A stretch of DNA of 26,617 nucleotides from Pirellulales bacterium (GCA_020851115.1 JADZDJ010000297.1:1-26617), one strand, 5' to 3'; numbered from the stretch's first letter, positions 7,010 through 21,785 are shown. Made by a program: numbers and translations. The notes: a model not told the origin generated them from the letters alone.

Positions 7010-8377
7010 CTAATTTTCATCACCGCCAAGCAATTTTTCTTCGACTTTGTCAGCCTGCCAAGCAATGGCGGTGATGACTCGGGTGACTGCGAGGGGATCT
7101 GCCATTCTTGCCAATTCATTCGCGCGAACTGCAAGCACGTCACCGGTTGGTCCTGATTCGATCGCAAACGCTCCATGTACCATCTGCGCGTTGTATTTGA
7201 GCAGCGAAATCGCATTCTTGTCGCTCGCGGGGCCGCAAACGGAACTGAAGACGAGCATTTGATTTCCATCAGGGTCTTTTACATCAAATCGTACCGTCAC
7301 GCGTTGTTTACGCAGCGGCCCGATGGGAACAATCACTTGCCATTGCTCTCCCGTGTCAGTCAGTTGCCAACCGGCCGACTGGGCAACGCTGCGGACGAGT
7401 TGCTTCGGATCAACGACCAGCGGTTTCAAATCGGCGAAATCTGGCCCAGCGGTTGCGGCCACAGCCGATGCGGCTGCTCCCGACGCCGCTCCCGGAGCAG
7501 CCTGGTAGGGTGCGGAGGGATTTGCGCCTTGCATCGCATCGCGCATCATCCCGGGGAACATCATGCCGAAACCCGCACCCATGCCCATTCCCATTGCCCC
7601 GGCACCCACGCCACCACCGCCGTGCTTGGCCATCTCGGCCATGCTGTTGGCGGCCTGATACATGGTGAACGACTGTAAGCCGCCCAAAGCTCCGATGCGG
7701 CTACGAGCGTTGATTGCTTCTTGCACTTCGTCCGGTGGCGTGACTGCATTAATAATGAAATCGACTAACTCCAGGCCGTATTTCGCAAAATCGTCGGCCA
7801 CTTTCGCCTTCGTGCCGGCCTCGATTTCGTTGGCCTTCGATTGCAATTCGAACACGCCGAGGCCGACGGAGGCCAGCAAGTCTCGCAGCCGCGAGACGAT
7901 GATGTCCTTTAAGAACGACGTGACTTCGTCGGTTGTGTATTTTCCCTGCGTACCGACGAGTGTATTTAGCAACAATGCTGAATCAACGACGCGGATCGAA
8001 AACTTGCCGTTGGCGCGCAATTGCACCATGCCGCCGAAGTCGGCGTCGCGCAATGGAATCGGCTGGCGCGTGCCCCACTTCTGGTCGAGGAACGTCTGCT
8101 TTCCAATGAAGTAAACCTGCGATTGGAACGGCGACTTTTCCCAGGGAATTGTCAAGATCCGGCTGATGATTGGCAGATTTTGCGTCGTCAACGTATAACG
8201 TCCTGGGCCAAAGCAGTCCATCGCTTTGCCATCGCGGAAAAATACCGCGTCTTGGTTCTGCTGCACGATAAGCTGCGCACCGTACTTGATGTCGGCCGAG
8301 CCTTCGGACGGAATTCGCTGGACGAGTGAACGGTTCGACTCGTCAAAAAACTGAATGACTTCGAGACGAAGGGACAT
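7010..8377 (-). CDS. SPFH/band-7 (COG4260 'virion-core-like' clade) domain protein fused via a Gly/Met/Ala-rich low-complexity linker to a C-terminal YbjN-like domain
   Basis: 455 aa. N-terminal ~250 aa are SPFH-like. Linker [26 protein letters not shown]...[19 protein letters not shown]. The C-terminal ~130 aa ([19 protein letters not shown]...[19 protein letters not shown]...) resemble YbjN/putative-sensory-transduction-regulator fold proteins. No TM helix. Confidence 0.8.
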
Positions 8378-8385
8378 AGTAGGGT

Positions 8386-8398
8386 CCAGGGTTCAGGG
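8386..8398 (-). repeat. 13-nt motif CCAGGGTTCAGGG (mRNA sense CCCUGAACCCUGG) ending 8 nt upstream of the SPFH-gene ATG; identical copy at 19251-19263
   Basis: Exact 13/13 identity with 19251..19263. Both copies are in minus-strand intercistronic regions, each exactly 8 nt from a start codon. Both are part of an approximate tandem of GGGTYCAG 8-mers and are followed by a shared AAAAT at the same offset. Confidence 0.5.
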
Positions 8399-8489
8399 AA
8401 TGCAAAATGAAGAATGAAGAATCAGGAGCAACGAAAATTCTCAGCTTTTTTAACTTGCATCGTGCAAATTATATTTTCGTTTTGAATCA

Positions 8490-8999
8490 CTACTCCAATC
8501 CTTTAAGCATATCGCTGCGATGGTCGATCGCTTGCTCAACGGCCGCAAGTTGTTCATTCCATTTTGCGACCTGCGGTGCGATTTCAGCCGTCGCAGTTGT
8601 CATCTGATCGAGGTTGTCGCCCAGTGCATCGACAGCGTCCATCATTTTCACATCATATTCATAGACGCGTTCCAACCGTCCTTCGTCCACTTGCACGAGG
8701 TCAAAAAATCCACTGTAGCCCGCCATTGCCCCGCGGAGTCGGCTAATCGACTTGTCAAGCCGTCCCTTGAATCGATCGACTTGCCCGACCGCATCCAGTT
8801 TGCCGGCATCGACGAGCGCGCGACTGTAGGCATCGAGTGCCCGCTTCGACCGCTGAAGTCGGTCGGCCAACCAACTGCGCTGCAGGGCGTCGCTGTCGCG
8901 GCGATATTCCTTTTCCAAGTACCCCTTAAAACCTGGAATTCGGCGAAGGATGCTTTCAATCCACCCCCGATTTTTTGCATGCTCGCGTGGTTCCGGCAT
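8490..8999 (-). CDS. Hypothetical protein (169 aa, predicted all-alpha, coiled-coil-like)
   Basis: ATG 8999 with GAGGT SD at -7. Charged helical sequence. No family recognised. Immediately upstream of the SPFH-YbjN gene on the same strand (112-nt spacer). Confidence 0.6.
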   Translation of the reverse strand: MPEPREHAKNRGWIESILRRIPGFKGYLEKEYRRDSDALQRSWLADRLQRSKRALDAYSRALVDAGKLDAVGQVDRFKGRLDKSISRLRGAMAGYSGFFDLVQVDEGRLERVYEYDVKMMDAVDALGDNLDQMTTATAEIAPQVAKWNEQLAAVEQAIDHRSDMLKGLE

Positions 9000-9178: not shown

Positions 9179-11587
9179 CTATTTTTCACTAGGAATTTCG
9201 CGACCGTGTGGATCGACTACCACCGATACCTCTGCTGCAAGTTGCTGTTGCACCTGGTGGCCGATGAAATGCTCCATGCGTTCAGCGGGTGCGTGAAGGT
9301 GATCGAGCGGCAATTCGGCCTGCTCCTCCAAATAGGCCTCCCACAGGCGGTGCGATCGAACGAGTGACCTGCCTACCTCGCGCCCCGCATCGGTCAGTTG
9401 CCAGCGTCCATCGGTTGCGAGTTGAATCTCTCCGCGGCGGCGCAAATACGGTACGGCAAGCAGGTGGGCCAAGCCGGTAACTGCGCTGCGATTTTTGATC
9501 GCTGTATTGGCCAACGATTCGCCGCGTGCGAGCAACTCTTCGGTTCGATAGAGCGCTGCAACCATATCTTCGCTTGTAATCCGCAGCGATAGCAAGAAAT
9601 TTCGCCACCACTTGCTCACCAGCCCATGCTGGGGTGCGATGAACACGGCCAGCAAGAATTGCAGCCCCACCGCGACGGCCATCATGGCAGCGACGTTCGT
9701 ATTGAACACTTGCGCCCCGATGTCCCCAAGAATAGCCGATACAATAGCTACCGCAACCGCGCAGCCGATCATCGGGCCCAAACGATCGGCCAGTAACTGC
9801 GCGGTCGCCGCCGGAACAATGAGCATTGCGACGACTAAAATCGAGCCAATTGCTTCAAATGCCGTCACCGTCACTCCTGCGACGACGGCCATCAGCAAGT
9901 AATGGATCACCGCAGCGTGTATCCCCATTGCGGTTGATAAACCAGCATCAAACGAGGCGATTTTCAGTTCCTTCCAAAGTATGCCGATGAACAAAATCAC
10001 TGATGCGCACATCCCCAACATCGTTGGCAGTGTGCGCGGCACTTCGTACGATCCGATGTTGATGACATCCACCGCGACGGTATCGAGCATTCCGTAAAGC
10101 ACGCACTGGGCGTCCAAATCGGTCCCCGCTGCATAGCGCGAAATCAGGATCACGCCGATCGAAAATAACGTCGTGTAGACAATGCCCATGCTCGAATCTT
10201 CCGGTACGCGGCCGAGATCCTTGAGTGCGTGTGTTAGAAATGCGGTCATGAAGCCAAACACCATCGCGCCGGCCAGAATTGGCCAGCCCGTGATCTGTCC
10301 TGTCAACATGAAGCCCAATACAATACCGGGCAGCACTGCATGGCTAATTGCATCCCCCAGTAAACTCATGCGCCGCAATACCAGATAGCAGCCGAGAATC
10401 GCGCATGGGATGTTGACGAGGCAGCCGATCAAGATGGTCCAACCGGCTAGCGGCCGATCGGTGGGTGGCACCAACCGCCACCAAGCAGCAAACAAAAGCA
10501 CGGCGCCAATAGCAACTCCGCCAAACTGAATGGCAAGATACAGCCATGATTTCTGCAAAGTTGTTGGCATTGGCCGTCGCCATTGGAAATCGTCGGGATG
10601 ATCTGAAATTGCATTGCCGAATCCCAGTTTCAACTTCATCGGGCCGCCAATGTCTTCCAGTGGCAATGCAAGCGACAATGTGGTCTCTGCTCCTTCAGTT
10701 GCTCGATAACCACCAGCCGCCAATAGACGGCGAAATTGCAACTGTCGAATGCCACGGGCCAACGCGCCGCGCCGCGGGGCGAAAAGCATCGAGATCAGAA
10801 AAATCATTGCGCCGGCGACAACGATAATTGGCCCCGTCGGGATGCCGGCCATTTGCACGCTGATTGCCGTACCAAACAATCCCATCGTACTTCCAAAAAT
10901 CGCCGACAAGACCAACATAATGTCCAGCCGATCGGTCCAGAACCTTGCGGCGGCTGCCGGTAAGATGAGCAGTGCCGCCATCAAGATTGCACCAACCGCC
11001 GGCAATCCAATCACCACGGCGACCGCCATTAGCGACATCAATAGCAGATCGAGCCGCCACACCGGCCAGCCTTGGGCCTTCGCAAAGCCCGCGTCGAAGG
11101 CCATCAGTTTGAATTCTTTGTAGAGCAGCAGAATCAATATCGCGCAGACGGCTGCCATTGCGGCAATTAAATAGACGTCGCTCGCAATCATGCCGGCTGT
11201 CTTGCCGAAAATATAGGAATCGAGGCCAGCTTTGCTGCCGCCGATCGACGACTTTTGGATATAGCCGCTCAATGCAATGCCGCCACCAAAAAAGACGCCA
11301 AGTACGATCCCGATCGCGGCGTCTTCTTTGATGCGAGTCCAACGCCGCAAGGCGGAAATCACCGCCACCCCCAGCACACCCGTGCAGAGCGCTCCGACCA
11401 GCATTGCCGGCAAACTACGCTCACCGAGTACGAGAAAAGCCAAGCACAAACCCGGCAAGGTGGCGTGCGAAAGCGCGTCGCCGGTCAGAGCGCGGCGGCG
11501 CAACACAGCAAAACTACCGACTACTCCAGCTCCGGCGCCGAGCAGCGCAGAACCAGCCAGCACGACCATCGAGTTATATGCGATCAT
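9179..11587 (-). CDS. Metal ABC importer permease: tandem fusion of two MntB/ZnuB/TroC-TroD-type permease domains plus a C-terminal DtxR/MntR-family metalloregulator domain (Chlamydia YtgCR / Treponema TroCD-TroR-like)
   Basis: 802 aa. Permease 1 is about aa 1-290 (...[13 protein letters not shown]...). A cytoplasmic linker follows. Permease 2 is about aa 355-650 (...[13 protein letters not shown]...). The C-terminal ~145 aa is DtxR-like: [17 protein letters not shown]...[11 protein letters not shown]...[17 protein letters not shown]...[11 protein letters not shown] 11585-11587 overlaps the ATPase stop TGA (ATGA coupling). Confidence 0.85.
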
Positions 11588-12345
11588 GGCGTGCGTGCGC
11601 CGGCTTGATAGGCTTGGCCGACGCTCTCCAGAACGTCGAGCCGGCCACCGTAGGTCTTCTGCAAGTTGACACTCGTGAATGTCTTCTCCGTCGGGCCGCT
11701 GGCAACCAGTCGCATATTTATCAACACCACATGGTCGAAATACTGGGGAACGGTGCGTAAATCGTGATGGACGACAATGACCGTCTTGCCGTGCTTACGC
11801 AGCTCGTTGAGCAAGCCAAACACGACGTGCTCAGTCGCCGCATCAACGCCCGCCATCGGTTCATCCATAAAATACATGTCTGGCTTTTGCGCTAACGCTC
11901 GGGCCAAGAAAGTTCGCTGCTGCTGTCCGCCCGAAAGCTGGCCGATTTGCTGCTGAGCGAAATCGGCCAGACCAACTTTGGCGAGACATTCGTGAGCGAA
12001 CTGGCGCTCGATATGCCCCGGTCTACGAAACCATCCAAGCCGGCCATAGCTGCCCATCAGTACGACATCCAGGACAGTGACAGGAAAATCCCAATCCACG
12101 CTTTCGCGCTGCGGCACGTAGCCAATTCGCTTCCGTACCTTGCCAATCGGTTGATCAAAGACGCGGACGGAGCCACTTGCCAACGGCACTAGTCCCAACA
12201 CTGCTTTGATGAGCGTGCTTTTGCCCGCCCCGTTCGGACCGATGATGCCAACCAGATGTGGCTCATTCAGCACTAAATCGATGTCCCACAGCACCGGTTT
12301 GCGATGATAGGCGACCGTCAGATCGTGAACATCGAGTAAAGGCAT
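11584..12345 (-). CDS. Metal ABC transporter ATP-binding protein (MntA/ZnuC/TroB family)
   Basis: Walker [10 protein letters not shown], signature LSGGQQQR, Walker B MYFMDEP, H-loop VVHHDL. 253 aa. Confidence 0.9.
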
Positions 12346-12361
12346 GGCCGGGAATGATCGC

Positions 12362-12438
12362 TTGGTGGTCTTGTTGTCGTACCGGGTGGTATTCTTGACG
12401 CATCTTTCCTACCAAACACCAGACGTCCAGACCACCAG
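12362..12438 (-). other. Intercistronic long-range inverted repeat / stem-loop between the SBP and ATPase genes
   Basis: TTGGTGGTCTTG (12362-12373) against CCAGACCACCAG (12427-12438). A 9-bp perfect core TGGTGGTCT/AGACCACCA and 10/12 overall, with a ~53-nt loop. Lies in the 105-nt SBP-ATPase spacer, immediately 3' of the SBP stop in mRNA sense. Confidence 0.3.
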
Positions 12439-12450
12439 TTACTGTTTTAT

Positions 12451-13446
12451 TTACTCCAGTGCTTTCACAATCGTTTCCACGTTGTGTCGAACCATGCCTG
12501 GATAAGTTCCATCCGGCGTGCCTGGCTTTCCCATTGCGTCAGAAAACAATTCGCCGCCAATTTTCACTTCGTGCCCGCGAGCCTGACAGCCTTCGACCAG
12601 CGCTTTGATATTGCGGTCTGAGACACTGGTTTCGATAAAAACGGCTTTGATCTTGCGGTTGACCAGCAAATCGACCAGCGAATTGATCTCCTTCACTCCC
12701 GCTTCGCTGTCGGTGCTGATGCCTTGAATGCCACGGACTTCGACATCGTACGCGCGTCCGAAATATCGAAACGCGTCGTGGGCCGTCACCAATACACGTC
12801 GATCGGCGGGAACTGTCGCCAGCCGCTGTCTTGCTTCTTCGTGTAAGCCTTCGAGTTCTTTGGCATAGGCCGCTGCTCGGCGTTCATATTCCACAGCATA
12901 TTTCGGATCGAATTTCGCCAGCGCATCCCGCACGACATCCAAGCACTGCTTCCACAGCGACACATCAAACCAAGTGTGAGGATCGTGAGCTCCTTCATTG
13001 GTTTCGAGAACTTGCGCTTCGTCGATTCCTTCTGTCACTGCAAACGTCGGCTTTCGTCGCGCCATCCGTACAAATAGGTCTGCCATTTTTCCTTCCAGGT
13101 GCAAGCCCGAGTAGAAAATGATGTCGGCATGACCAAGCGCGCTCATATCTCCTGGCGAGGCTTTGTAAAGATGCGGATCGACCCCCTCGCCCATCAATTG
13201 CGTGACGGCTATTCGATTACCACCCACCTGTTTCACAAGGTCGGCGACCATTCCTGTAGTGCATACTGCGCGGATAGGATAGTTGCCGCGGAATGCGCCA
13301 TGATGATAATCGCCTGACTTCTCAAACTCTGAAGCGCCGGCAGTATCGCCGATGGCATCGATTCTCCCGCAACCAATCAACGGTAGAAGCAAAAACAGTC
13401 CTGCGATTTGCCAATTTCTAGGCCGGCGATTTATCGCTGCAATCAT
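12451..13446 (-). CDS. Metal ABC transporter substrate-binding lipoprotein, cluster A-I TroA/ZnuA/MntC-like
   Basis: ORF extends to ATG 13485. ATG 13446 gives a canonical lipoprotein signal MIAAINRRPRNWQIAGLFLLLPLIGC (lipobox LIGC). Metal-site motifs DPHLY, DPHTWFD, HDAFRYF, SVSDR. No His-rich loop. The third ligand position is His, as in TroA/ZnuA rather than PsaA (by recall). Confidence 0.85.
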   Translation of the reverse strand: MIAAINRRPRNWQIAGLFLLLPLIGCGRIDAIGDTAGASEFEKSGDYHHGAFRGNYPIRAVCTTGMVADLVKQVGGNRIAVTQLMGEGVDPHLYKASPGDMSALGHADIIFYSGLHLEGKMADLFVRMARRKPTFAVTEGIDEAQVLETNEGAHDPHTWFDVSLWKQCLDVVRDALAKFDPKYAVEYERRAAAYAKELEGLHEEARQRLATVPADRRVLVTAHDAFRYFGRAYDVEVRGIQGISTDSEAGVKEINSLVDLLVNRKIKAVFIETSVSDRNIKALVEGCQARGHEVKIGGELFSDAMGKPGTPDGTYPGMVRHNVETIVKALE

Positions 13447-13499
13447 TCGAACCGCTACCAGTTCTTGAGCCACGAAAATAAACATTTTGATACACCAAA

Positions 13500-13528
13500 A
13501 TTATCGGCGGTTTTGGTGGTATAGTCAA
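13500..13528 (-). promoter_or_regulatory. Near-consensus sigma70 promoter for the metal-uptake operon: TTGACT-17-GATAAT
   Basis: Minus-sense TTGACT (13528-13523), a 17-nt spacer, GATAAT (13505-13500). About 45 nt upstream of ATG 13446. Overlapped by CCAAAA/TTTTGG inverted repeats (see findings). Confidence 0.45.
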
Positions 13529-14073: not shown

Positions 14074-15999
14074 CTAGGCGTCGTAGGGCATCAAGATTTC
14101 ATCGGGGTGCAATCCCGCGATTGACTTAAATCCGCCCTCGGCAATCGTTTCTCCCAGCTTTGTCGCCCTGCGGAAATCACGGTCGCTCGGTGCGCGACCG
14201 GTGAGCTTGCGCGTAAGATCCGTGCAAAGCACGTCGGCAGCCGCTTGAACGACCTCATCGGATTGCCGGGTCGCATACAATGACGTGCAAAGAATTGTCA
14301 CGGCATCTTGCAATTGTTGCGAGAGATAGGCCATGCGGCACTGTCGATCGGCCAGCGCCAATTGATGTTTGCGCATCACGCCGTCAATTCGCAGCGGCGA
14401 GTCTTGCAGCCACTGCGCGGCAAACGTGGCGTGGGCCGCGAGCGTCGCAGGCATTTCCGCTGGGAGTTGTGGCTTCGGCTTCGAGTTGAACTTTTGGCCA
14501 AGCATCCATTTCAGGTAAGGGAACATTACTCCGCGGAGCGTCCAAGTATGGCCCGGATTGATCGGGTTTAGTTTCTTGATTCCTGCCGCTGCCAGCGCTT
14601 TGCCGATTGGTTCAAAAAATCTCATGCCATGTTGTTTCACCAATGACTTGAAAAACGCCATGCCGAGCATTTCCCCTTCGCCTTCGTAGATGCAAGGGGC
14701 GAGGTATTCATGTACGTTGTCGCCAAACATGTGGCCGTGTAGGAACGACCTCCCGCCATGCGTTTTCATGAACAGTTCGACGGCGGCTTCTTTTTGAGCC
14801 TCGCTGCCGAAGATTTTGGCGACAATGCACTCCATCTCGCCGCGATAGCCCTGATCCAATAGCCCCGCACACCATTGCACCAGCGCATCGCAGGCGACCA
14901 CCAGGCCAGCGAGCCGCCCCAGCCGCCGACGGACTAATTCTCGCTTCGCAATTGTTTCGCCATACGTGCGGCGAAACATTGCCCAGGGAATAATGCTCGC
15001 CATCATGAGCCGCATGGTGCCTGCGGCATTCGCACACAGCGCGACGCGTCCCAGATTCAAGCCGTGATAGGCGATGGTTAACCCGTCGCCCCGCGACGGC
15101 GTCAGCAAATTCTCGGCGGGTACGTGGAAGTCGCGAAACACGATGCCTTGGTTATCGGTGTGTTTCAGAGCATATAACCCGTACTTTTTCAGTTGAAACT
15201 GATCGTTTTCCCGATTCGGCAAATCGACAATGAGCACCGCCGGTCGCTTGTCGATCAAGCACACCAAGCCGATTGTTCGGCCGGGAACAACGTTGGTGAT
15301 AAACAGCTTTTCACCATTCACAACAAATTCGTTGCCAACCTGTCTCGCTTCCGTTCGCAAGGCAGTCAGGTCGGAACCCGCGCAGGGTTCAGTAAGGGCG
15401 AAGGCCGACAATCGTTGGCCACTGGCGAGCATCGGCAAGAATCGTCGCTTTTGCTCGGAAGTGCCAAACGTTCGCACGGGATCGACGGCCCCGATGCAAC
15501 CGTGGACTGAAGCGAGACCCGCGACTGTCGGATCGATCATCGCCATCTGAGTCAGAAATGGCGCGAATGCTGAAAATGGCGCTCCGCTGCCGCCGTAATC
15601 GCGATCGACAAGCAATCCCCAATAGCCGGCGCTCGCCAAATCGTTAAGCACGGCATCGGAGACTTTCCTTTGATCGGTCTGCATCGTCCCAGCCGCACGA
15701 TGACGGCGAACCACCTCGAGTGAATTCTCCATCACGCGTAGCACGTCGGTTGCCGTTGTTCCTGGCGCACTGCCGAACAATTCCGTCGGCAGGCCGCGCT
15801 GCCAAACGGCTCGATGCACAGGACTGTTTGCCGTTTGGAATCGCGCCGCAAAAAGCGCCTCAACTTGATCGTCGGCTTGATCGACCGCTCCCATGCGGCG
15901 AGCTTCTTCTTCACTCTTGCCGCCGAGCTTCATCGCGGTTTCAGCGAACGACGTTTCCGGCGACTCGTGAACGGTGGTGGATCGAGAATGATCGGTCAT
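14074..15999 (-). CDS. fadE: Acyl-CoA dehydrogenase (large ~640-aa form, FadE-like)
   Basis: ACAD-type core (...YGGSGAPF..., [25 protein letters not shown]). Long C-terminal extension. The ORF starts with GTG at 16038. The first ATG (15999) gives MTDHSRSTT.... Confidence 0.85.
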
Positions 16000-16252
16000 T
16001 GCATTGCTGTTGAAAGAGAACGTAAACGGCCGAGGCACTGACGCTCATAAAGGCGAGTTAATGGCCGTTCAACTTGTGATGTCGAGGAAACACGGGTGAA
16101 CACGGTGAGGGCGTAAGCCCGCAACCAGAACCAGAGGAGGCACCAGAGATTGCATAGGTTTTCCAGTGGTGAATCTCCGTTGTGGCCTCTGCATTTCTGC
16201 CATTCAAAAATGTTGTCAAATTAACAAAGTATTTCGGATTTATAATACAAAT

Positions 16253-16274
16253 CCATGCAGAGACCGTTGCATGG
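16253..16274 (-). terminator. Candidate intrinsic terminator downstream of the fadD-like gene
   Basis: In minus sense, CCATGCA-8 nt-TGCATGG (7-bp stem) followed by AUUUGUAUUAUAAAU. Located in the AT-rich 320-nt spacer between fadD stop 16360 and the fadE start. Confidence 0.3.
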
Positions 16275-16359
16275 CAGGCGGTAAGGTAATGTGAAACTCG
16301 TCTGTTGCATCCTTTTCCATCTCTATTCACCCGCCTTGACTTGCATTCCCTGGACTTTG

Positions 16360-18084
16360 CTATTTTGAATGTTCTGTTCCGCAGTTCAATGTTAGGTCGG
16401 AGTACAACGTCTCAATTTCGGCCGCAAAATGCTCATGAATCATTTTGCGACGGAGTTTCAACGTCGGCGTGAGTTCTTCTTGTTCCATCGTAAAGCCGCG
16501 TGGTAGCAGCTTGAATCGCTGGATTTGCTCGCAGTCCGATGCTTCGGCCAGGCGTGAATCGATTCGCTCCCGATAGAGTTCCAAAACCGATGGATGTGCT
16601 AGCGCCTCGGCTGGCGAGATAACCGGAAGGTGTCGTGAAATAATCTCCGCTCGCAAAGCATCTGGATTTGGCACGATCAGGGCGGTTAGATACTTACGAT
16701 TGTCGCCGATTACAATGGCTTGCGCCACCAGGGGGTCTTGCGTCAGCAGCGATTCGAGATAAACCGGCGCGATGTTCTTGCCGCCAGCGGTGACGATGAT
16801 CTCCTTCTTGCGACCGGTAATTCGCAAATATCCGTCGGCGTCGAGACTGCCCAAATCTCCAGTTTGCAACCAGCCATCGCGCATCGTCGCGGTGGTAGCA
16901 TCGGCTCGGTTCCAATAACCAAGCATCACATGTGGCCCGCGAGTGAGGATTTCGCCATCGTCCGCGATTTTTACTTCGACGCCTTTGATTGGTTGGCCGA
17001 CGGTGCCCAATTTGTGCCGGCTTGGTGTGCCGGTGGTTATCACCGGCGACGATTCCGTCAGCCCATAGCCCTGCACCAGTGGCACTCCCTCCTGCCAAAA
17101 GAACTCGGCGACATGGTTGGGCAATGCTGCGCCGCCGGAGCAACAAGCGCGTATCCTTCCTCCTAGCAACCGCTGTAAATGAGTCGGCCCGCCGGGTTCC
17201 GCAGGGCCGACCTTGCCGGCGTCGACCAGCGAGCGTTTTACCTTCTCAAAAAAGTAGGGAACTCCGTTCATCAGCGTCGGACGAAGTTGGCTGCAATGCA
17301 TGATGATTTTCTCGCGATTTTCTGCCAATCCAAGCTGTGAACCGCGAACCAGCCACGTATAAAGATCGCACGTGCGGGCAAAGATGTGAGACAGTGGCAG
17401 CCAACAAAGCCGAATGTCCTCGGCTTCGGTTTGGAATGCATCGCAACTGCCGATGGCGTTGCTCACCAGATTTCCGTGGCTGAGCATGACTCCTTTCGCT
17501 TCGCCCGTCGTACCGGAGGTATAAAGGATGGTCGCCAGGTCGGTGGCCTTGACGTTTTCGATGGCCTCTTGCTCGATACCCGCGACTCCATCTCTGGCGA
17601 CCGCCGCGAACAACTCGGTGAAGGGCAAGACATCGTCACCGGCGATCGACTGCTCGCGGGGATCGAATGAAAAGTACTTCAAACCGCGCGGCAAAGCTAC
17701 CTTCTCCGACAATAGTTTGGTCACTTGCGATTCACCGGACACGATTACGATTTTTGACCCACTGTCGGCAATTTGAAACGCGATCTGCGGCCCAGAAAGG
17801 GAGGCATGAATCGCCACATGGACTCCGCCGGCAAGATGCACGGCCAAGTCGACGACGATCCATTCATAGCGGTTTTCCGAAACTTGACAGACACGATCTC
17901 CCGGCTCAACTCCAGCGCGACGAAGGCCCGCGGCCAATCGGCGAACCTCTTGGGCCAGATCGTTCCAAGTAAGTACTTGTAACGCGGCCGGATCGCTTTT
18001 GAGCAGATGTAAGGCGACGTTGTTGCTGCTGGCCGCGACGCGACGGATAAACAGCGACGGCAGCGTGCTGGGCAGTTGGGACAT
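16360..18084 (-). CDS. fadD: Long-chain-fatty-acid--CoA ligase (AMP-binding, FadD-like)
   Basis: AMP-binding motif YTSGTTGEAKGVMLSHGNL, GYGLTESS, and motifs around GDLGSLDADGYLRITGRKKE. ATG 18082-18084 directly abuts the fadA stop (18085-18087). Confidence 0.9.
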   Translation of the reverse strand: MSQLPSTLPSLFIRRVAASSNNVALHLLKSDPAALQVLTWNDLAQEVRRLAAGLRRAGVEPGDRVCQVSENRYEWIVVDLAVHLAGGVHVAIHASLSGPQIAFQIADSGSKIVIVSGESQVTKLLSEKVALPRGLKYFSFDPREQSIAGDDVLPFTELFAAVARDGVAGIEQEAIENVKATDLATILYTSGTTGEAKGVMLSHGNLVSNAIGSCDAFQTEAEDIRLCWLPLSHIFARTCDLYTWLVRGSQLGLAENREKIIMHCSQLRPTLMNGVPYFFEKVKRSLVDAGKVGPAEPGGPTHLQRLLGGRIRACCSGGAALPNHVAEFFWQEGVPLVQGYGLTESSPVITTGTPSRHKLGTVGQPIKGVEVKIADDGEILTRGPHVMLGYWNRADATTATMRDGWLQTGDLGSLDADGYLRITGRKKEIIVTAGGKNIAPVYLESLLTQDPLVAQAIVIGDNRKYLTALIVPNPDALRAEIISRHLPVISPAEALAHPSVLELYRERIDSRLAEASDCEQIQRFKLLPRGFTMEQEELTPTLKLRRKMIHEHFAAEIETLYSDLTLNCGTEHSK

Positions 18085-19242
18085 TTAGACTCGTTCGAAA
18101 ACCGTGGCGATACCCTGTCCGACGCCGATGCACATGGTTGCCAGCCCAGTTTGTGCGCCACGGTCGAGCATGTTATGCAGCAGCGTCGTCGTGATACGGG
18201 CGCCACTGGCGCCAAGCGGATGACCGATGGCAATCGCCCCGCCGCGGACGTTGACTTTCGCTTCATCGAACTTCGACATGCGGATGCAAGCCAGCGATTG
18301 CGACGCGAAGGCTTCGTTCAGTTCGATCAAATCAATGTCGCTCAGCTTCATGCCAGCGCGCTGCAGGGCTTTCTTCGTCGCCGGCACCGGGCCAGTGCCC
18401 ATAACGGCCGGTTCGACGCCGACAACGGCCGTCGCAACGATTCGCACGAGCGGCTTCAGGCCGAGCGACTTTGCTTTGTCTTCGGACATGACCAATAGGG
18501 CCGCGGCACCGTCGTTCAGCGGTGAACTATTGCCGGCCGTCACCGTTCCCATCCCCGGCATAAACGCTGGCTTGATCGCCGCAAGGGCTTCCATGCTAGT
18601 GTCCGGACGCACGCACTGATCGACTTCGACCAACACGCGATGGCCGGCCTCATCGCGGCCGTAGATGGGCACGATCTCTGGTTTGAATTCGCCTTTGGTA
18701 TGTGCCGCCGCGGCACGCTGATGGCTGCGCAGCGCGAACCGATCTTGCTCCTCGCGGGAAATGCCCTGCGTCTGCGCAAGGAATTCCGCCGTGACACCCA
18801 TGAGCAGCGCGCCTTTGCTGGTGCGCTGAAAGAGCCGAGGATTCAGATTGATCCCTGCGTCCATCGGAATGTGCTGCATGTGCTCCAGTCCGCCGACGAT
18901 CTGCACATCTTCGCCGCCGGCGATGATGGAATGCGCTGCTTGATTGAGCGCTTGCAAGCTGGAGCCGCACAGCCGGTTAATCGTTGCCCCGGCCGCATGC
19001 ATCGGCATCCCAGCCATGAGGGCCACCGTGCGAGCGACGTTCATTCCCTGCTCGCCTTGCTGCTGCGTATTGCCCAGCACGACGTCTTCGACTTCGTTCG
19101 GATCGATGCCGCTCCGCTCCACGACGGCTTTGACGACAGCCGTCGCCAAATCGTCCGAGCGAACATCGCGAAATACACCCTTTTCTTGATGTGACCGGCC
19201 AATTGGAGTGCGTGCGGCAGCGACGATGACGGGGCGTATCAT
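18085..19242 (-). CDS. fadA: Acetyl-CoA C-acyltransferase (3-ketoacyl-CoA thiolase)
   Basis: Thiolase motifs NRLCGSSLQA (active-site Cys), the C-terminal GGAIAIGHPLGASGARI, and CIGVGQG. Confidence 0.9.
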   Translation of the reverse strand: MIRPVIVAAARTPIGRSHQEKGVFRDVRSDDLATAVVKAVVERSGIDPNEVEDVVLGNTQQQGEQGMNVARTVALMAGMPMHAAGATINRLCGSSLQALNQAAHSIIAGGEDVQIVGGLEHMQHIPMDAGINLNPRLFQRTSKGALLMGVTAEFLAQTQGISREEQDRFALRSHQRAAAAHTKGEFKPEIVPIYGRDEAGHRVLVEVDQCVRPDTSMEALAAIKPAFMPGMGTVTAGNSSPLNDGAAALLVMSEDKAKSLGLKPLVRIVATAVVGVEPAVMGTGPVPATKKALQRAGMKLSDIDLIELNEAFASQSLACIRMSKFDEAKVNVRGGAIAIGHPLGASGARITTTLLHNMLDRGAQTGLATMCIGVGQGIATVFERV

Positions 19243-19250
19243 GGCAGGAG

Positions 19251-19263
19251 CCAGGGTTCAGGG
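19251..19263 (-). repeat. Second copy of the CCAGGGTTCAGGG motif, 8 nt upstream of the fadA ATG (within tandem GGGTTCAG x2)
   Basis: Identical 13-mer to 8386..8398. Lies in the 40-nt fadB-fadA intercistronic spacer (19243-19282). Followed by GTTCAGAAAAT. Confidence 0.5.
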
Positions 19264-19282
19264 TTCAGAAAATCGGTCAGAT

Positions 19283-21424
19283 TCAGCCATAGAATCTTGA
19301 TCCGGCGTGTGCCATTTCTTCAAGCATCGGTGTGGGCTTCCAGCGCTGGCCGAGCGATTCAAATGGCTTGAGCATTTCGATAATCTTGCTTGCCCCCAGC
19401 GTGTCGGCCCAAAACAGCAGGCCCCCTTTGAACGGTGGAAAGCCGAGGCCATAAATCAGTCCGAGATCCACGTCGCGAATGTCTCGTACAATCTTATCCT
19501 GAAGCAGCCGGGTAGCTTCGAGAACCATCGGAAGAAACAGCCGTGCCGTGAGCTGCGCTTCGCTAAATTGCTGCTGACTGCGGACCATTGACTCCACAAT
19601 CGATTGGAGCGCTGGGTCCGGTTCGCCGCGGTCTTTACCGGGGTGATACTTGAAAAAACCAGCGCCAGATTTCTGCCCGAGACGACCAGCTTTGATGAGC
19701 GCCGGCACGACGGGTGAAACAACGACTCGCTCCGGAAAAGCGTCGTACATCACACGTCCCGCATAAAACGCTGTATCGAGCCCGACAACGTCAAACAGCG
19801 TAATCGGTCCCATCGGCATTCCAAAATTTTTTGCGGCTCGATCGATTGCAGCAATATCTGCGCCGTCAAGCAGCAATTCGATCGATTCATTCATATAGGG
19901 CAGCAACAAGCGATTGACCAGAAATCCTGGCCCATCGTTGACAACGATCGGCGATTTGCCGATCGCTTTGGCGTAGGCGACCGCCGTAGCGATGGTTTCG
20001 TCGCTGGTTTGCTTCCCGCGGATCACTTCCACCAGTGGCATTTTGCGGACCGGATTGAAGAAGTGAATCCCACAAAATTGCTGCGGTCGCTTTAACGCCT
20101 TCGCAAGTTGCGTGATGGGGATTGTCGAAGTGTTGGATGCCAAGACGGCGTGTTCGCGCAATTGGGGTTCAAGCCGCGCAAAAACCTGCTGTTTCACGGC
20201 GGCATTTTCGACGACCGCTTCAACCACTAAATCACAGGTGGCGACTTCGGCATCGGTCGTCGTGGCATTCAGCAGCGCGGCGAATTTCACGGCACGCGCT
20301 GGATCGGCGCCTTTGGTTTGTTTATTGTACGAAACTTCTTCGAGCACTTTTTGCACGCCTGCCGAAAGCGCCTTTGCGGCGGCGTCGGTCATGGTCACCG
20401 GAACATCGCGACGCAAATTTGCTGCCGCAATTCCTTGCCCCATGATACCCGAACCGATGACGGCGACCGATTGGATGGGTCGCGCTACGATATTTGGCCG
20501 ATCAATGCCGAGGTCTTTCTTGTTGCGATCCGATAAAAAGAAAACATTGATCAGCGACCGGTTTACCGGTGAGCCAAACAAGGCCGCCATACCCTTGGCT
20601 TCTTCCTCGCAAGCAGCGTCGATGTCGAGGGCTGCAGCGCCGAGCATTACTTCAAGCGCCGCGAATGGAGCGGGGTAATGACCCTTGGTTTGCTGTTGAA
20701 TGAGCGCCGAAGCGGTCGCACCGAGGAAGCCCAACTCCGTCTCATTGATTTTGATCGGCGCGCTCCAGCGCTGGCGGTCGTCAAGAAACTGCTTCGATTG
20801 CTGTTCGTCGCGAATCATCCGAATCGCGGCGTCTTGCAATCGCTCGGCCGGCGCTACATCGTCGGCAATTCCTAGCTTGAACGCAGAGGCCGCATCGATA
20901 TTTTCCGCGCCGGTGACCAGTTCCACGGCGTTGCTCAATCCAATCATCCGCGAAGTTCGGGCCGTGCCGCCCCAGCCGGGAAACAGCCCCAGTTTGACTT
21001 CGGGAAATCCAAACTGTGACTTTGGATTTAAGCTCAGAACGCGTCGGTCGCACCAGATGGCCAACTCTGCTCCGCCGCCGACACAAATTCCATCGATCGT
21101 CGCAACTGTCACAAACGGGTACGTCGATAACCGCTGAAACAGCTTTCGACCGCGATGGCAAAACTCGACAATTTGCTGCTTTGGCATCTCAAACGATGCG
21201 GCAAACTCGCGAATATCGGCACCTGCGATGAACGATCCTGGCTTGCCAGAGCGAATGACAAGCCCCGCGAGGCCAGTGCGCTTTTCGAGCGAGTCCAATT
21301 GTACCGATAATTCTTCGAGCACATGCGATGTGAGCACGTTCGCGCCCTTTTTGGGGTCATCAAACGTCAACATGGCTATGTCGGCTTCAGGAAACGAGAG
21401 TTTGACAACCGATTCGTTGGGCAT
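19283..21424 (-). CDS. fadB: Fatty-acid oxidation complex alpha subunit (enoyl-CoA hydratase / 3-hydroxyacyl-CoA dehydrogenase, FadB/FadJ-like)
   Basis: N-terminal crotonase fold and a central NAD-binding GSGIMGQGIA. ~714 aa from ATG 21424 (MPNESVVKLSF...). The ORF extends to ATG 21547 but the extra 41 aa are low-complexity, so the start is uncertain. Confidence 0.85.
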   Translation of the reverse strand: MPNESVVKLSFPEADIAMLTFDDPKKGANVLTSHVLEELSVQLDSLEKRTGLAGLVIRSGKPGSFIAGADIREFAASFEMPKQQIVEFCHRGRKLFQRLSTYPFVTVATIDGICVGGGAELAIWCDRRVLSLNPKSQFGFPEVKLGLFPGWGGTARTSRMIGLSNAVELVTGAENIDAASAFKLGIADDVAPAERLQDAAIRMIRDEQQSKQFLDDRQRWSAPIKINETELGFLGATASALIQQQTKGHYPAPFAALEVMLGAAALDIDAACEEEAKGMAALFGSPVNRSLINVFFLSDRNKKDLGIDRPNIVARPIQSVAVIGSGIMGQGIAAANLRRDVPVTMTDAAAKALSAGVQKVLEEVSYNKQTKGADPARAVKFAALLNATTTDAEVATCDLVVEAVVENAAVKQQVFARLEPQLREHAVLASNTSTIPITQLAKALKRPQQFCGIHFFNPVRKMPLVEVIRGKQTSDETIATAVAYAKAIGKSPIVVNDGPGFLVNRLLLPYMNESIELLLDGADIAAIDRAAKNFGMPMGPITLFDVVGLDTAFYAGRVMYDAFPERVVVSPVVPALIKAGRLGQKSGAGFFKYHPGKDRGEPDPALQSIVESMVRSQQQFSEAQLTARLFLPMVLEATRLLQDKIVRDIRDVDLGLIYGLGFPPFKGGLLFWADTLGASKIIEMLKPFESLGQRWKPTPMLEEMAHAGSRFYG

Positions 21425-21785
21425 TGGGCTAATATTCCTATTGGGAGTTTCCCTCCACTCAAGGATAGAGCTGCCGGGCTGCCTCGTAAACCCAGATTGA
21501 ATGCCGCCGGACGAGGTGGTAAACTTCGTCCATAAGCCTTGACCCATCTAGCATGGCGATCCTGCGGTCGCCGTTCGAGCCGTTTAGGCTGGTCATGTCA
21601 AGGAGGGAAATACGAAGAAGTCAAGCATCCAACGGCAGCGCTTTTAGTCAAGGATGGCAGGTTTAGGGGGATTCCGTCCGAGGTTGATGATCTGCTAGAA
21701 CGAGCAGACGATTGCCAGGTGCGACATCGCCTGGCAGTCGAAATAGCTTGCATTGGGCTGACTACTGTATTGATTAGGATTTTTT

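What the first reader, a model, noticed from the sequence alone, without database searches (positions are those of the whole stretch)
9179..13528. Tro/Ytg-like metal importer operon in which both permease domains and a DtxR/MntR-type repressor are fused into one 802-aa polypeptide
In Treponema (troABCD-troR) and most bacteria the repressor is a separate protein. In Chlamydia a single permease is fused to the repressor (YtgC-YtgR), and the repressor is released proteolytically. Here both permease domains (ZnuB/MntB-type, each with the ...LGDA(L/I)SHA.LPG... signature) are fused to a C-terminal DtxR-like domain. The ORF follows an SBP lipoprotein gene and an ATPase gene, with an ATGA start/stop overlap. 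A membrane-tethered, possibly cleavable, metal-sensing repressor built into its own transporter would make uptake and regulation stoichiometric. This architecture looks rare and under-described outside Chlamydiae, and fits a PVC-superphylum relationship.
Basis: partly seen in the sequence, partly recalled or inferred. Interest (0 to 1): 0.7.

Follow-up and report, generated by a model that had tools for sequence, protein, structure and literature searches.

The report
Metal importer with built-in DtxR-like sensor
A planctomycete metal-uptake ABC transporter has both membrane halves and a DtxR-type metal-binding module fused into one protein, and comparison with relatives suggests the module senses metal for the transporter itself rather than acting as the operon's repressor, as its Chlamydia counterpart does.

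Summary
The 802-aa ORF (9179-11587, minus strand) is intact. It follows a ZnuA-family lipoprotein gene and an ATPase gene (ATGA overlap). It contains two ABC-3 permease halves plus a C-terminal DtxR/MntR-fold module.

It is not rare. It is one of at least three arrangements in a large, mainly planctomycete family: perm1-perm2-DtxR, perm1-DtxR-perm2, and unfused forms in which both permeases carry a module. Some members add an Nramp transporter. Permease-repressor fusions outside Chlamydia were already reported in 2012.

The "repressor" reading is doubtful here:
- The metal-ligand positions are 85-100% conserved, but the DNA-reading helix is hydrophobic, varies in length and is only 23-33% identical between proteins whose operons share an identical operator.
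- That operator (TTTTGA-N4-TCAAAA, just after the -10 box) is conserved across all arrangements.
- In the perm1-DtxR-perm2 loci it lies next to a canonical free-standing DtxR repressor gene.

I judge the module most likely to be a built-in cytoplasmic metal sensor that throttles transport (confidence about 0.5). A YtgCR-like autorepressor is the main rival (about 0.3). This is a new variant of a known kind.

The parts
13500..13528 (-). Sigma-70-type promoter of the operon: -35 TTGACT (13528-13523), 17-nt spacer, -10 GATAAT (13505-13500).
   Evidence: (10 of 12 matches) and sequence. The same TTGAC-N17-GAyAmT layout occurs upstream of the orthologous operons in L003, L004 and L010.
13485..13500 (.). 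Candidate operator: palindrome TTTTGGTGTATCAAAA (family consensus TTTTGA-N4-TCAAAA). It starts at the last base of the -10 hexamer and ends at the first base of the listed ATG.
   Evidence: It is the only exact match in the 26.6-kb window. The exact 16-mer lies at the same promoter position in L004, L006 and L010. It was also found, out of sample, in L011, L012 and L013. L003 has one mismatch. The core TTTG-N6-CAAA occurs once per locus in type-B loci L007-L009. Chance expectation is about 1e-4 per 250 nt.
13511..13518 (-). Extra half-site CACCAAAA in the promoter spacer. It pairs with TTTTGGTG (13500-13493) as an 8-N10-8 inverted repeat that overlaps the operator.
   Evidence: Function not tested.
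12451..13485 (-). Substrate-binding lipoprotein gene (ZnuA/TroA/PsaA cluster A-I family). The real start is probably the ATG at 13446 (Met14), because the listed ATG overlaps the operator and the likely transcription start.
   Evidence: Pfam ZnuA 5e-80. The best NCBIfam matches are AztC and MntC, both below cut-off. Lipobox LLLPLIGC and motifs DPHLY / HDPHTW / TAHDAF / FSDAM are read from the translation. They suggest a His-His-His-Asp, TroA/AztC-like ligand set, which is an inference from known SBP motifs.
11584..12345 (-). ABC ATPase gene. Its stop overlaps the permease start (ATGA). It has no Cys/His-rich C-terminal sensing tail of the ZnuC type.
   Evidence: closest to the MntA and Mn/Fe ATPase models. 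The tail sequence was read. The ZnuC sensing motif is described.
10718..11587 (-). Permease half 1 (aa 1-290): nine long helices plus a cytoplasmic amphipathic helix (275-290). It carries the Asp37/His41 coordination-site motif.
   Evidence: PsaC TM 0.81-0.89. PsaC has 9 TM helices and an Asp46/His50 site.
10562..10717 (-). Cytoplasmic linker (aa 291-342), disordered and poorly conserved. It occupies the place where unfused relatives carry a second, degenerate DtxR-like module on permease 1.
   Evidence: pLDDT is below 50 for 303-341. Identity among type-A relatives is 7-46%. The perm1 extensions in L011-L013 score Fe_dep_repr_C at 1e-4 to 1e-6.
10472..10561 (-). Extra transmembrane helix (aa 343-372). 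It returns the chain to the outer face so that the nine-helix second half can insert in the correct orientation.
   Evidence: Helix 343-372 in the model. A nine-TM topology puts the two ends on opposite sides of the membrane. Type-B proteins have an equivalent hydrophobic segment after their internal module.
9623..10471 (-). Permease half 2 (aa 373-655), with the invariant Asp412/His416 motif.
9524..9622 (-). One continuous helix (aa 656-688) that runs from the membrane exit into helix 1 of the DtxR-like module. It carries the invariant Glu673-Asp674 (DtxR Glu9/Met10 positions; MntR Asp8 position).
9395..9523 (-). Winged-helix-like region (aa 689-731: H2, H3, wing). The fold is kept but the sequence is decayed.
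   Evidence: PF01325 is not detected. Positions matching DtxR DNA contacts are 15-78% conserved and mostly hydrophobic. Identity is 23-33% between proteins whose operons share the same operator. Length ranges from 32 to 57 aa. The region is still net positive in 88% of members.
9191..9394 (-). Metal-binding/dimerisation domain (aa 732-799) with His746, Glu750, His765, Glu769, Glu772 and His773 at DtxR positions 79, 83, 98, 102, 105 and 106.
   Evidence: Pfam Fe_dep_repr_C 57-61 bits. Ligand positions are 85-100% conserved over 41 type-A/C sequences. Foldseek matches DtxR/IdeR/DR2539.

Best explanation
Shown. The ORF encodes the whole membrane unit of a PsaBC/ZnuBC/TroCD-class ionic-metal ABC importer as a single chain:
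- permease half 1 (nine helices);
- a disordered cytoplasmic remnant;
- one extra transmembrane helix that restores topology;
- permease half 2 (nine helices);
- a long rigid helix that leads straight into a two-domain DtxR/MntR-fold module with no SH3 domain.

The module keeps a complete MntR/DtxR-type ligand set. Two ligands (Glu673, Asp674) sit on the long helix that continues from the last transmembrane segment. The other six sit on the dimerisation domain. The operon is transcribed from a sigma-70-type promoter whose start region is covered by a palindromic operator, TTTTGA-N4-TCAAAA.

Inferred. When cytoplasmic Mn2+/Fe2+ (or Zn2+) rises, metal bridges the long helix to the body of the module. 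This stiffens or re-orients the connection to the last transmembrane helix and slows or locks the transporter. It is a post-translational feedback brake analogous to the zinc-sensing tail of ZnuC. Transcription of the operon is controlled separately, by a canonical free-standing DtxR-family regulator that reads the conserved operator.
For: 1. Constraint pattern. Ligand positions are 85-100% conserved, while positions matching DtxR DNA contacts are 15-78% conserved and hydrophobic. No member of the top 120 scores for the wHTH model PF01325.
2. Same operator, different 'recognition helix'. P0001, P0017, P0007 and P0099 have the identical operator 16-mer, yet they are 23-33% identical in H2-H3-wing against 53-74% in the metal domain. 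P0099 lacks helix 2.
3. Control. In 119 free DtxR regulators at 67% overall identity, H2-H3-wing is 76% identical against 83% for the metal domain, and the recognition helix is almost invariant.
4. The operator core is shared by all arrangements.
5. In type-B loci the operator lies in the divergent region next to a 225-aa canonical DtxR with PF01325.
6. In type B and in the Nramp fusions the module is internal, so one cut cannot free it.
7. In unfused type-C systems both permeases carry such a module, so it behaves as a standing part of the transporter.
8. The model shows one continuous helix from the membrane to the ligand pair.
9. Precedent. The ZnuC zinc-sensing domain locks ZnuBC closed. 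The ATPase here has no such tail.
Against: - No experiment exists on any planctomycete member.
- The closest studied relative, Chlamydia YtgR, binds DNA and is released from YtgC.
- The winged-helix fold is retained with high confidence. It stays net positive in 88% of members, mean +2.8.
- Type-A and type-C loci have no regulator gene within 6-10 kb.
- I could not show that their genomes encode the free regulator elsewhere: two searches gave no Pirellulales names.
- Known trans-inhibition domains sit on the ATPase and act as pairs. Here the module is on the permease and is single in type A.
- I could not inspect model coordinates to see where the module docks.
Confidence: 0.5

Rival explanations
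1. YtgCR-like autorepressor. The C-terminal module is the operon's own metal-dependent repressor. It is either freed from the membrane (by proteolysis, or by internal initiation near the conserved Met635-Met636) or acts while tethered. It dimerises with metal and binds the promoter-proximal palindrome.
For: - The architecture parallels Chlamydia YtgC-YtgR, where DNA binding, autorepression and cleavage were shown experimentally.
- The full DtxR two-domain fold is present, with an intact metal site.
- The wHTH region is net positive in 88% of members.
- A strong palindromic operator covers the transcription start.
- No other regulator gene lies near type-A/C operons.
- No Pirellulales free regulator was found.
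Against: - The recognition helix is not conserved among proteins whose operons share the identical operator. It is hydrophobic at the DtxR Gln43/Ser42/Pro39 positions.
- Helix 2 is missing in P0099 and in the type-B model.
- PF01325 is never detected.
- The same operator core occurs in type-B loci, which have their own canonical repressor.
- The module is internal in type B and in the Nramp fusions.
- There is only one module per transporter in type A, whereas DtxR proteins bind DNA as dimers (established knowledge).
Confidence: 0.3
2. Metal acceptor or scaffold. The module takes the ion as it leaves the channel (buffering it or handing it on to cytoplasmic clients), or it simply holds transporter units together. 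It has no regulatory role.
For: - The metal site is conserved and lies at the cytoplasmic exit side, on a helix continuous with the last transmembrane segment.
- The module is physically joined to two different importers in the Nramp fusions.
- One module sits on each permease in type C, which suggests a structural pair.
Against: - No precedent is known to me for a DtxR fold acting as a chaperone.
- The perm1 module has lost several ligands in type C yet is retained. That argues for a structural or allosteric role over metal hand-off.
- Nothing tested here separates this reading from the sensor model.
Confidence: 0.12
3. Artefact. A frameshift or assembly misjoin has merged separate troC, troD and troR-like genes.
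For: None beyond the fact that the window is a metagenome-assembled contig.
Against: - 16 full-length type-A proteins from independent assemblies and sources share the arrangement.
- A dedicated extra transmembrane helix restores topology between the halves.
- The whole chain is modelled with high confidence, pTM 0.88.
Confidence: 0.01

Closest known systems
Chlamydia trachomatis YtgC-YtgR (ytgABCD operon)
   Same: An ABC-3 permease carries a C-terminal DtxR-like module in the same ORF. The operon has a TroA-like SBP and an ATPase. The DtxR metal-ligand positions are conserved.
   Different: - In Chlamydia only one permease (the first, ytgC) is fused and ytgD is separate. Here both halves are one chain and the module follows the second half.
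- YtgR binds DNA and is released as a fragment of about 28-30 kDa. Here the DNA-reading region is decayed and no cleavage evidence exists.
- No direct sequence comparison was possible.
troABCD-troR (Treponema) and psaBCA/PsaR, mntABC/MntR systems
   Same: The transporter class is the same: ABC-3 permeases with the Asp/His coordination motif, a cluster A-I SBP, and a DtxR/MntR-family metal sensor linked to the system.
   Different: In those systems the regulator is a free soluble protein with a conserved wHTH. The type-B relatives of this locus have that as well, in addition to the fused module.
ZnuC zinc-sensing domain of E. coli ZnuBC (2025 cryo-EM preprint, PMC12236471)
   Same: A cytoplasmic metal-binding domain built into a transporter of the same class. 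It locks the transporter when the imported metal is plentiful.
   Different: It is a short Cys/His tail on the ATPase, is present twice and acts by dimerising. Here the module has a DtxR fold on the permease and is present once in type A.
E. coli FhuB
   Same: A natural single-chain fusion of two type-II importer permease halves. The model superposes over 689 columns (TMq 0.53).
   Different: Each FhuB half has ten helices, so no extra linking helix is needed. It has no sensor module, and its substrate is a siderophore complex.
Two-domain DtxR-family regulators (Deinococcus DR2539, MntR, IdeR N-terminal domains)
   Same: The fold matches (TM 0.72-0.80), and the module likewise has no SH3 domain. 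The Asp/Glu/His-rich ligand set resembles the Mn-responsive members.
   Different: These are soluble dimers with conserved DNA-contact residues. The fused module lacks those residues.

Membership tests
ABC-3 / cluster A-I ionic-metal ABC importer (PsaBC, ZnuBC, TroCD, MntBC class) | Permease matches the ABC-3 family model | tested here: met
   PF00950, 1.3e-108, two copies.
ABC-3 / cluster A-I ionic-metal ABC importer (PsaBC, ZnuBC, TroCD, MntBC class) | Nine-helix PsaC-type fold in each half | tested here: met
   The AF2 model has nine long helices per half. Foldseek TM to PsaC is 0.81-0.89. PsaC has nine TM helices.
ABC-3 / cluster A-I ionic-metal ABC importer (PsaBC, ZnuBC, TroCD, MntBC class) | Asp-x3-His coordination site on TM2 | tested here: met
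   D37/H41 and D412/H416. The latter pair is invariant in 83 sequences. The site is defined.
ABC-3 / cluster A-I ionic-metal ABC importer (PsaBC, ZnuBC, TroCD, MntBC class) | Operon partners: ZnuA-family SBP and ABC ATPase | tested here: met
   The partners are conserved in L002-L004, L006 and L010-L013.
ABC-3 / cluster A-I ionic-metal ABC importer (PsaBC, ZnuBC, TroCD, MntBC class) | Which metal is transported | not testable with these tools
   The SBP scores below cut-off for both the AztC (Zn) and MntC (Mn) models. Motifs suggest a His-His-His-Asp set, which is ambiguous.
DtxR/MntR family metalloregulator | Metal-binding/dimerisation domain (PF02742) | tested here: met
   57-61 bits against a cut-off of 27.
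DtxR/MntR family metalloregulator | Conserved metal ligands | tested here: met
   E673, D674, H746, E750, H765, E769, E772 and H773 are 85-100% conserved.
DtxR/MntR family metalloregulator | N-terminal wHTH DNA-binding domain (PF01325) | tested here: inconclusive
   The sequence model does not match, even at E<=10. The fold is present in the model and matches DtxR structures.
DtxR/MntR family metalloregulator | Conserved DNA-contact residues in the recognition helix | tested here: not met
   with the free-regulator control.
DtxR/MntR family metalloregulator | Metal-dependent dimerisation and operator binding | not testable with these tools
   This needs EMSA, ChIP or a structure.
YtgCR-type permease-repressor fusion | ABC-3 permease and DtxR-like module in one ORF | tested here: met
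YtgCR-type permease-repressor fusion | Module on the first permease, with a separate second permease | tested here: not met
   Here the module follows the second half and both halves are fused. Orthology of YtgC to half 1 was not tested.
YtgCR-type permease-repressor fusion | Proteolytic release of the module | not testable with these tools
   No cleavage motif is known even in Chlamydia.
YtgCR-type permease-repressor fusion | Module binds its own promoter | not testable with these tools
   Indirect evidence points against it: the operator is conserved but the recognition helix is not.
Trans-inhibited ABC importers (ZnuBC sensing tail; MetNI and ModBC from established knowledge) | Cytoplasmic domain that binds the transported substrate | tested here: inconclusive
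   The ligand set is conserved, but the bound metal and its match to the substrate are unknown.
Trans-inhibited ABC importers (ZnuBC sensing tail; MetNI and ModBC from established knowledge) | Regulatory domain on the ATPase, acting as a pair | tested here: not met
   The module is on the permease and single in type A. It is paired only in type C.

The most novel reading that the evidence does not exclude
A transcription-factor fold (DtxR/MntR) has been taken over as an allosteric gate of a transporter. In this planctomycete family the module no longer reads DNA. It senses cytoplasmic metal and brakes the importer it is welded to, and in some members a fused Nramp as well. An unlinked canonical DtxR handles transcription through the TTTTGA-N4-TCAAAA operator. 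Under this reading, the Chlamydia YtgCR repressor would be one specialised outcome of an older sensor-in-transporter design that started with one module on each permease half.
Probability: 0.45. Interest if true: 0.8.

Novelty: new variant of a known kind. Interest (0 to 1): 0.6.

Why it matters
Metal importers must be shut off quickly, because excess Mn, Fe or Zn is toxic, and transcriptional repression alone acts slowly. Direct feedback on this transporter class has only just been seen, in the ZnuC sensing tail.

If the DtxR-like module is such a brake, it is a second, independent solution, and an example of a DNA-binding fold re-used as a transporter regulator. If it is a repressor after all, the family offers free-living, culturable organisms (Pirellula staleyi and relatives) for studying the membrane-tethered-repressor problem that is hard to address in Chlamydia.

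Either way, the set of natural permutations gives ready-made constructs for structural and transport work:
- the module on half 1;
- the module on half 2;
- a module on both halves;
- the module placed internally;
- the module joined to an Nramp.

The conserved operator also gives a concrete site for regulon prediction in Planctomycetota.

Tried and rejected
- Thompson et al. 2012 could not be read by DOI or PMC id. Its claim is cited second-hand from a review.
- The afdb50 fold library was unavailable.
- Model coordinates are not exposed to scripts, so I could not measure where the module docks or whether its dimer face is free.
- Two searches with free DtxR regulators were meant to show whether Pirellulales also encode one. 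The top-120 lists are filled with Phycisphaerae-type proteins and name no Pirellulales member, so the question stays open.
- The default inverted-repeat search of the promoter region found nothing, because the arms are shorter than its minimum length. The dyad came from reading the sequence and a custom scan.
- I first considered the 8-N10-8 repeat CACCAAAA/TTTTGGTG as the operator. It is not conserved in relatives, whereas TTTTG-N6-CAAAA is.
- A class of 164-176-aa 'free' relatives turned out to be truncated gene calls that start at a conserved Met-Met in the last transmembrane helix.
- I could not obtain a chlamydial YtgC sequence, so homology of this module and its permease partner to YtgCR was not tested directly.

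Full report
**1. Observation**

The window holds an uninterrupted 802-aa ORF on the minus strand (9179..11587). It is preceded by a 253-aa ABC ATPase gene (11584..12345; ATGA stop/start overlap) and a 344-aa substrate-binding protein gene (12451..13485).

- Pfam finds two ABC-3 permease domains and a DtxR-family metal-binding/dimerisation domain at residues 732-799 (57 bits, cut-off 27). The partners are an ABC_tran ATPase and a ZnuA-family SBP. NCBIfam agrees.
- The DtxR N-terminal DNA-binding model PF01325 does not score, even on the isolated C-terminus at E<=10.
- phmmer against PDB aligns residues about 678-799 to DtxR residues 14-133.
- An AlphaFold2 model built on 83 homologues (pLDDT 89.6, pTM 0.88) shows H1 (656-688), H2 (693-700), H3 (706-717), a wing (721-731) and three dimerisation helices.
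- Foldseek matches each permease half to the solved Mn importer subunit PsaC (TM 0.81-0.89). It matches the two-half arrangement to FhuB, and the C-terminal module to two-domain DtxR/IdeR/DR2539 (TM 0.72-0.80).

The protein is identical to an NCBI entry from a Pirellulales MAG on a 26,617-bp contig.

**2. It is real, and built for the fusion**

PsaC has nine transmembrane helices, so its two ends face opposite sides of the membrane. The model shows nine long helices in half 1. These are followed by a cytoplasmic amphipathic helix, a disordered stretch (303-341), and one extra long helix (343-372) immediately before the first helix of half 2. That extra helix is what a head-to-tail fusion of two nine-helix units needs.

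Sixteen full-length proteins with the same order come from independent assemblies. Four other loci have the same SBP-ATPase-fused permease operon. A frameshift or misassembly is excluded for practical purposes.

**3. It is one permutation of a large family**

Cutting the query into segments and comparing them with the 120 best database hits shows three arrangements:
- **Type A** (24 clusters including fragments; the window type): half 1, half 2, then the module.
- **Type B** (37 clusters; named members are Phycisphaerae, Phycisphaerales and Isosphaera): half 1, the module, a hydrophobic segment, then half 2. The module is therefore internal. An AlphaFold2 model (pLDDT 77) agrees and lacks helix 2.
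- **Type C** (59 clusters, including Pirellula staleyi DSM 6068): a separate half 1, and half 2 with the module.

Further points:
- Types A and C share flanking gcvT/H/P genes, so A most likely arose from C by fusing adjacent genes.
- In type-C loci the separate half 1 is 425-437 aa. In L011-L013 its extension also scores as Fe_dep_repr_C (1e-4 to 1e-6). It aligns to the same helix-wHTH-dimerisation layout but with altered ligand positions that resemble the type-B module.
- The simplest history is an ancestor with one module on each permease half. Type A kept the half-2 module and retains only a disordered remnant after half 1. Type B kept the half-1 module.
- Two type-A relatives carry a complete Nramp transporter after the module (1072 and 1291 aa).
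- A search of 1.84 billion cluster representatives with the module alone gave 2,104 hits at E<=1e-3 and 393 at E<=1e-10. The best 150 are almost all C-terminal to ABC-3 permeases or are fragments of such proteins. Named divergent members come from Gemmatales, Phycisphaerales and Ca. Sumerlaeia.
- A review states that Thompson et al. 2012 had already found permease-repressor fusions in 11 phyla.

So the fusion as such is neither rare nor new. I found no paper describing the double-permease form, the internal form, the two-module form or the Nramp form.

**4. What the module conserves and what it does not**

I aligned 41 type-A/C modules with DtxR and MntR.
- Residues at the DtxR Glu9, Met10, His79, Glu83, His98, Cys102, Glu105 and His106 positions are Glu, Asp, His, Glu, His, Glu, Glu and His. 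Conservation is 85-100%. This is a Mn-regulator-like Asp/Glu/His set. The DtxR 15-133 sequence used for numbering appears; the N-terminal residues and the MntR sequence came from memory.
- Positions matching the DtxR DNA contacts (Arg27, Ser37, Pro39, Thr40, Ser42, Gln43, Arg47, Arg60; established knowledge, and Pro39/Gln43 variants appear among the IdeR-DNA entries) are only 15-78% conserved and are mostly Leu, Ala or Trp.
- The region ranges from 32 to 57 residues in length.
- As a control, 119 canonical free regulators at 67% overall identity keep H2-H3-wing at 76% identity (metal domain 83%), with a nearly invariant recognition helix.
- The fused region does remain net positive in 88% of members (mean +2.8, against +4.6 in the free regulators). 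Some interaction with DNA or the anionic membrane surface cannot be excluded.

**5. The operator**

The operon has a TTGACT-17-GATAAT promoter (13528..13500). Starting at the last base of the -10 hexamer is the palindrome TTTTGGTGTATCAAAA (13500..13485), the only exact TTTTG-N6-CAAAA in the window.

- The exact 16-mer lies at the same place in L004, L006 and L010, and with one mismatch in L003. Chance expectation is about 1e-4 per 250 nt.
- Three type-C loci fetched afterwards each have exactly one core match in 21 kb. It lies 55-70 nt upstream of the SBP gene, and each is TTTTGA-N4-TCAAAA.
- The core TTTG-N6-CAAA also occurs exactly once in each type-B locus, again immediately after the -10.
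- There it lies in the divergent region shared with a 225-aa free DtxR-family gene that has PF01325, PF02742 and an SH3/FeoA domain.

**6. The key inconsistency for the repressor reading**

P0001 (window), P0017, P0007 and P0099 sit behind identical operator 16-mers. Their H2-H3-wing regions are 23-33% identical, against 53-74% in the metal domain. Their 'recognition helices' ([56 protein letters not shown]) share only buried-type hydrophobic positions, and P0099 has lost helix 2. A conserved operator read by a non-conserved reading head is implausible. A conserved operator read by the highly conserved free regulator is straightforward.

**7. Mechanism proposed**

The model shows one continuous helix (656-688) from the membrane exit to helix 1 of the module. 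It carries Glu673-Asp674, while the other six ligands lie on the dimerisation domain. In DtxR/MntR proteins, metal binding ties helix 1 to the dimerisation domain (established knowledge).

Here the same event would stiffen the link to the last transmembrane helix. I therefore propose a cytoplasmic metal-sensing brake on transport. The ZnuC zinc-sensing tail, which locks ZnuBC, is a precedent in the same transporter class, and the ATPase here has no such tail. This step is inference.

Points against:
- the experimental Chlamydia precedent for DNA binding and cleavage;
- the retained fold and positive charge;
- the absence of a regulator gene within 6-10 kb of type-A/C operons and in the window;
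- my failure to show a free regulator elsewhere in those genomes;
- the single copy of the module in type A.

I put the sensor model at about 0.5, the YtgCR-like autorepressor at about 0.3, an acceptor/scaffold role at about 0.12, and artefact at about 0.01.

**8. Comparison with known systems and verdict**

As a transporter, this is a clear member of the ABC-3 / cluster A-I ionic-metal importer class. All the sequence and fold features tested are met; the substrate metal is undetermined.

The module is a DtxR-family domain by its metal/dimerisation half and by fold. It fails the test for conserved DNA-contact residues, so I do not file it as a DtxR-type repressor.

It resembles YtgCR in being a permease-DtxR fusion. 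It differs in which half carries the module, in the fusion of both halves, and probably in function.

The finding is a new variant of a known kind. The rarity claim is wrong. The regulatory interpretation is probably not right for this clade.

Interest is 0.6: the architecture alone is ordinary for Planctomycetota, but the family-wide evidence for a transcription-factor fold re-used inside a transporter is unexpected and directly testable.

Noticed in passing
L006:6001-9876 (P0007, 1291 aa); also P0006 (1072 aa): Triple fusion: two ABC-3 halves, the DtxR-like module, then a complete Nramp transporter (PF01566, 4.7e-137) in one ORF. Two different metal importers flank one sensor module.
   Followed up: partly
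L007:6001-8469, L008:6001-8427, L009:6001-8475 (P0021, P0026, P0044): Type-B arrangement, with the DtxR-like module between the two permease halves. A conserved VPASPHPI motif and a hydrophobic segment follow it. The ligand positions differ (Gln-Asn for Glu-Asp; Asp/Asp for His98/Cys102).
   Followed up: partly
L007:2937-3614, L008:2455-3132, L009:3284-3952 (minus strand): A canonical 222-225-aa DtxR-family regulator (wHTH + dimerisation + SH3/FeoA) is transcribed divergently from every type-B operon examined. It shares the operator-bearing intergenic region. The family is very large and highly conserved (7,835 hits at E<=1e-10).
   Followed up: partly
L011:8727-10004, L012:8727-10004, L013:8727-10004, L010:4688-6001: In unfused (type-C) systems the first permease (425-437 aa) also ends in a degenerate DtxR-like module. 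One transporter would therefore carry two modules, possibly a built-in pseudo-dimer.
   Followed up: partly
P0183 (411-aa fragment): The DtxR-like module is followed by another C-terminal domain with a YDGGCGLCH motif, which looks like a DCC-type thiol-disulfide oxidoreductase. This is another fusion variant.
   Followed up: no
window 9680-9685 (codons Met635-Met636); P0131, P0140, P0185, P0189 and others: Many database entries of 164-176 aa start at a conserved Met-Met inside the last transmembrane helix. They are most simply truncated gene calls. A conserved internal start that yields a one-helix-anchored module cannot be excluded.
   Followed up: partly
window 13446-13485: The listed SBP start codon (13485) overlaps the last base of the operator and lies only about 8 nt from the likely transcription start. 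The ATG at 13446 (Met14) gives a normal lipoprotein signal (RR, hydrophobic core, LIGC) and is the more likely start.
   Followed up: partly
window 13511-13518 with 13493-13500: A second inverted repeat, CACCAAAA-N10-TTTTGGTG, overlaps the promoter spacer and the operator. It is not conserved in the related loci examined.
   Followed up: partly
L008:3248-4108 and L006:2894-3922: A Phenol_MetA_deg (outer-membrane channel-like) gene lies directly upstream of the SBP gene in two related operons. It may be the outer-membrane entry route for the metal.
   Followed up: no
window 14074-21547 (minus strand): A fatty-acid beta-oxidation cluster sits next to the operon: acyl-CoA dehydrogenase (654 aa), acyl-CoA synthetase (574 aa), thiolase (385 aa) and a FadB-like hydratase/dehydrogenase (754 aa). 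No link to the transporter is apparent.
   Followed up: no
window 7010-8999 (minus strand): Downstream of the operon lie a 169-aa ORF with no Pfam match and a 455-aa SPFH/Band-7 protein with a long Gly/Ala/Met-rich middle segment.
   Followed up: no
window 21180-21193: A second match to the relaxed core TTTG-N6-CAAA lies inside the FadB-like gene. This is consistent with chance.
   Followed up: no
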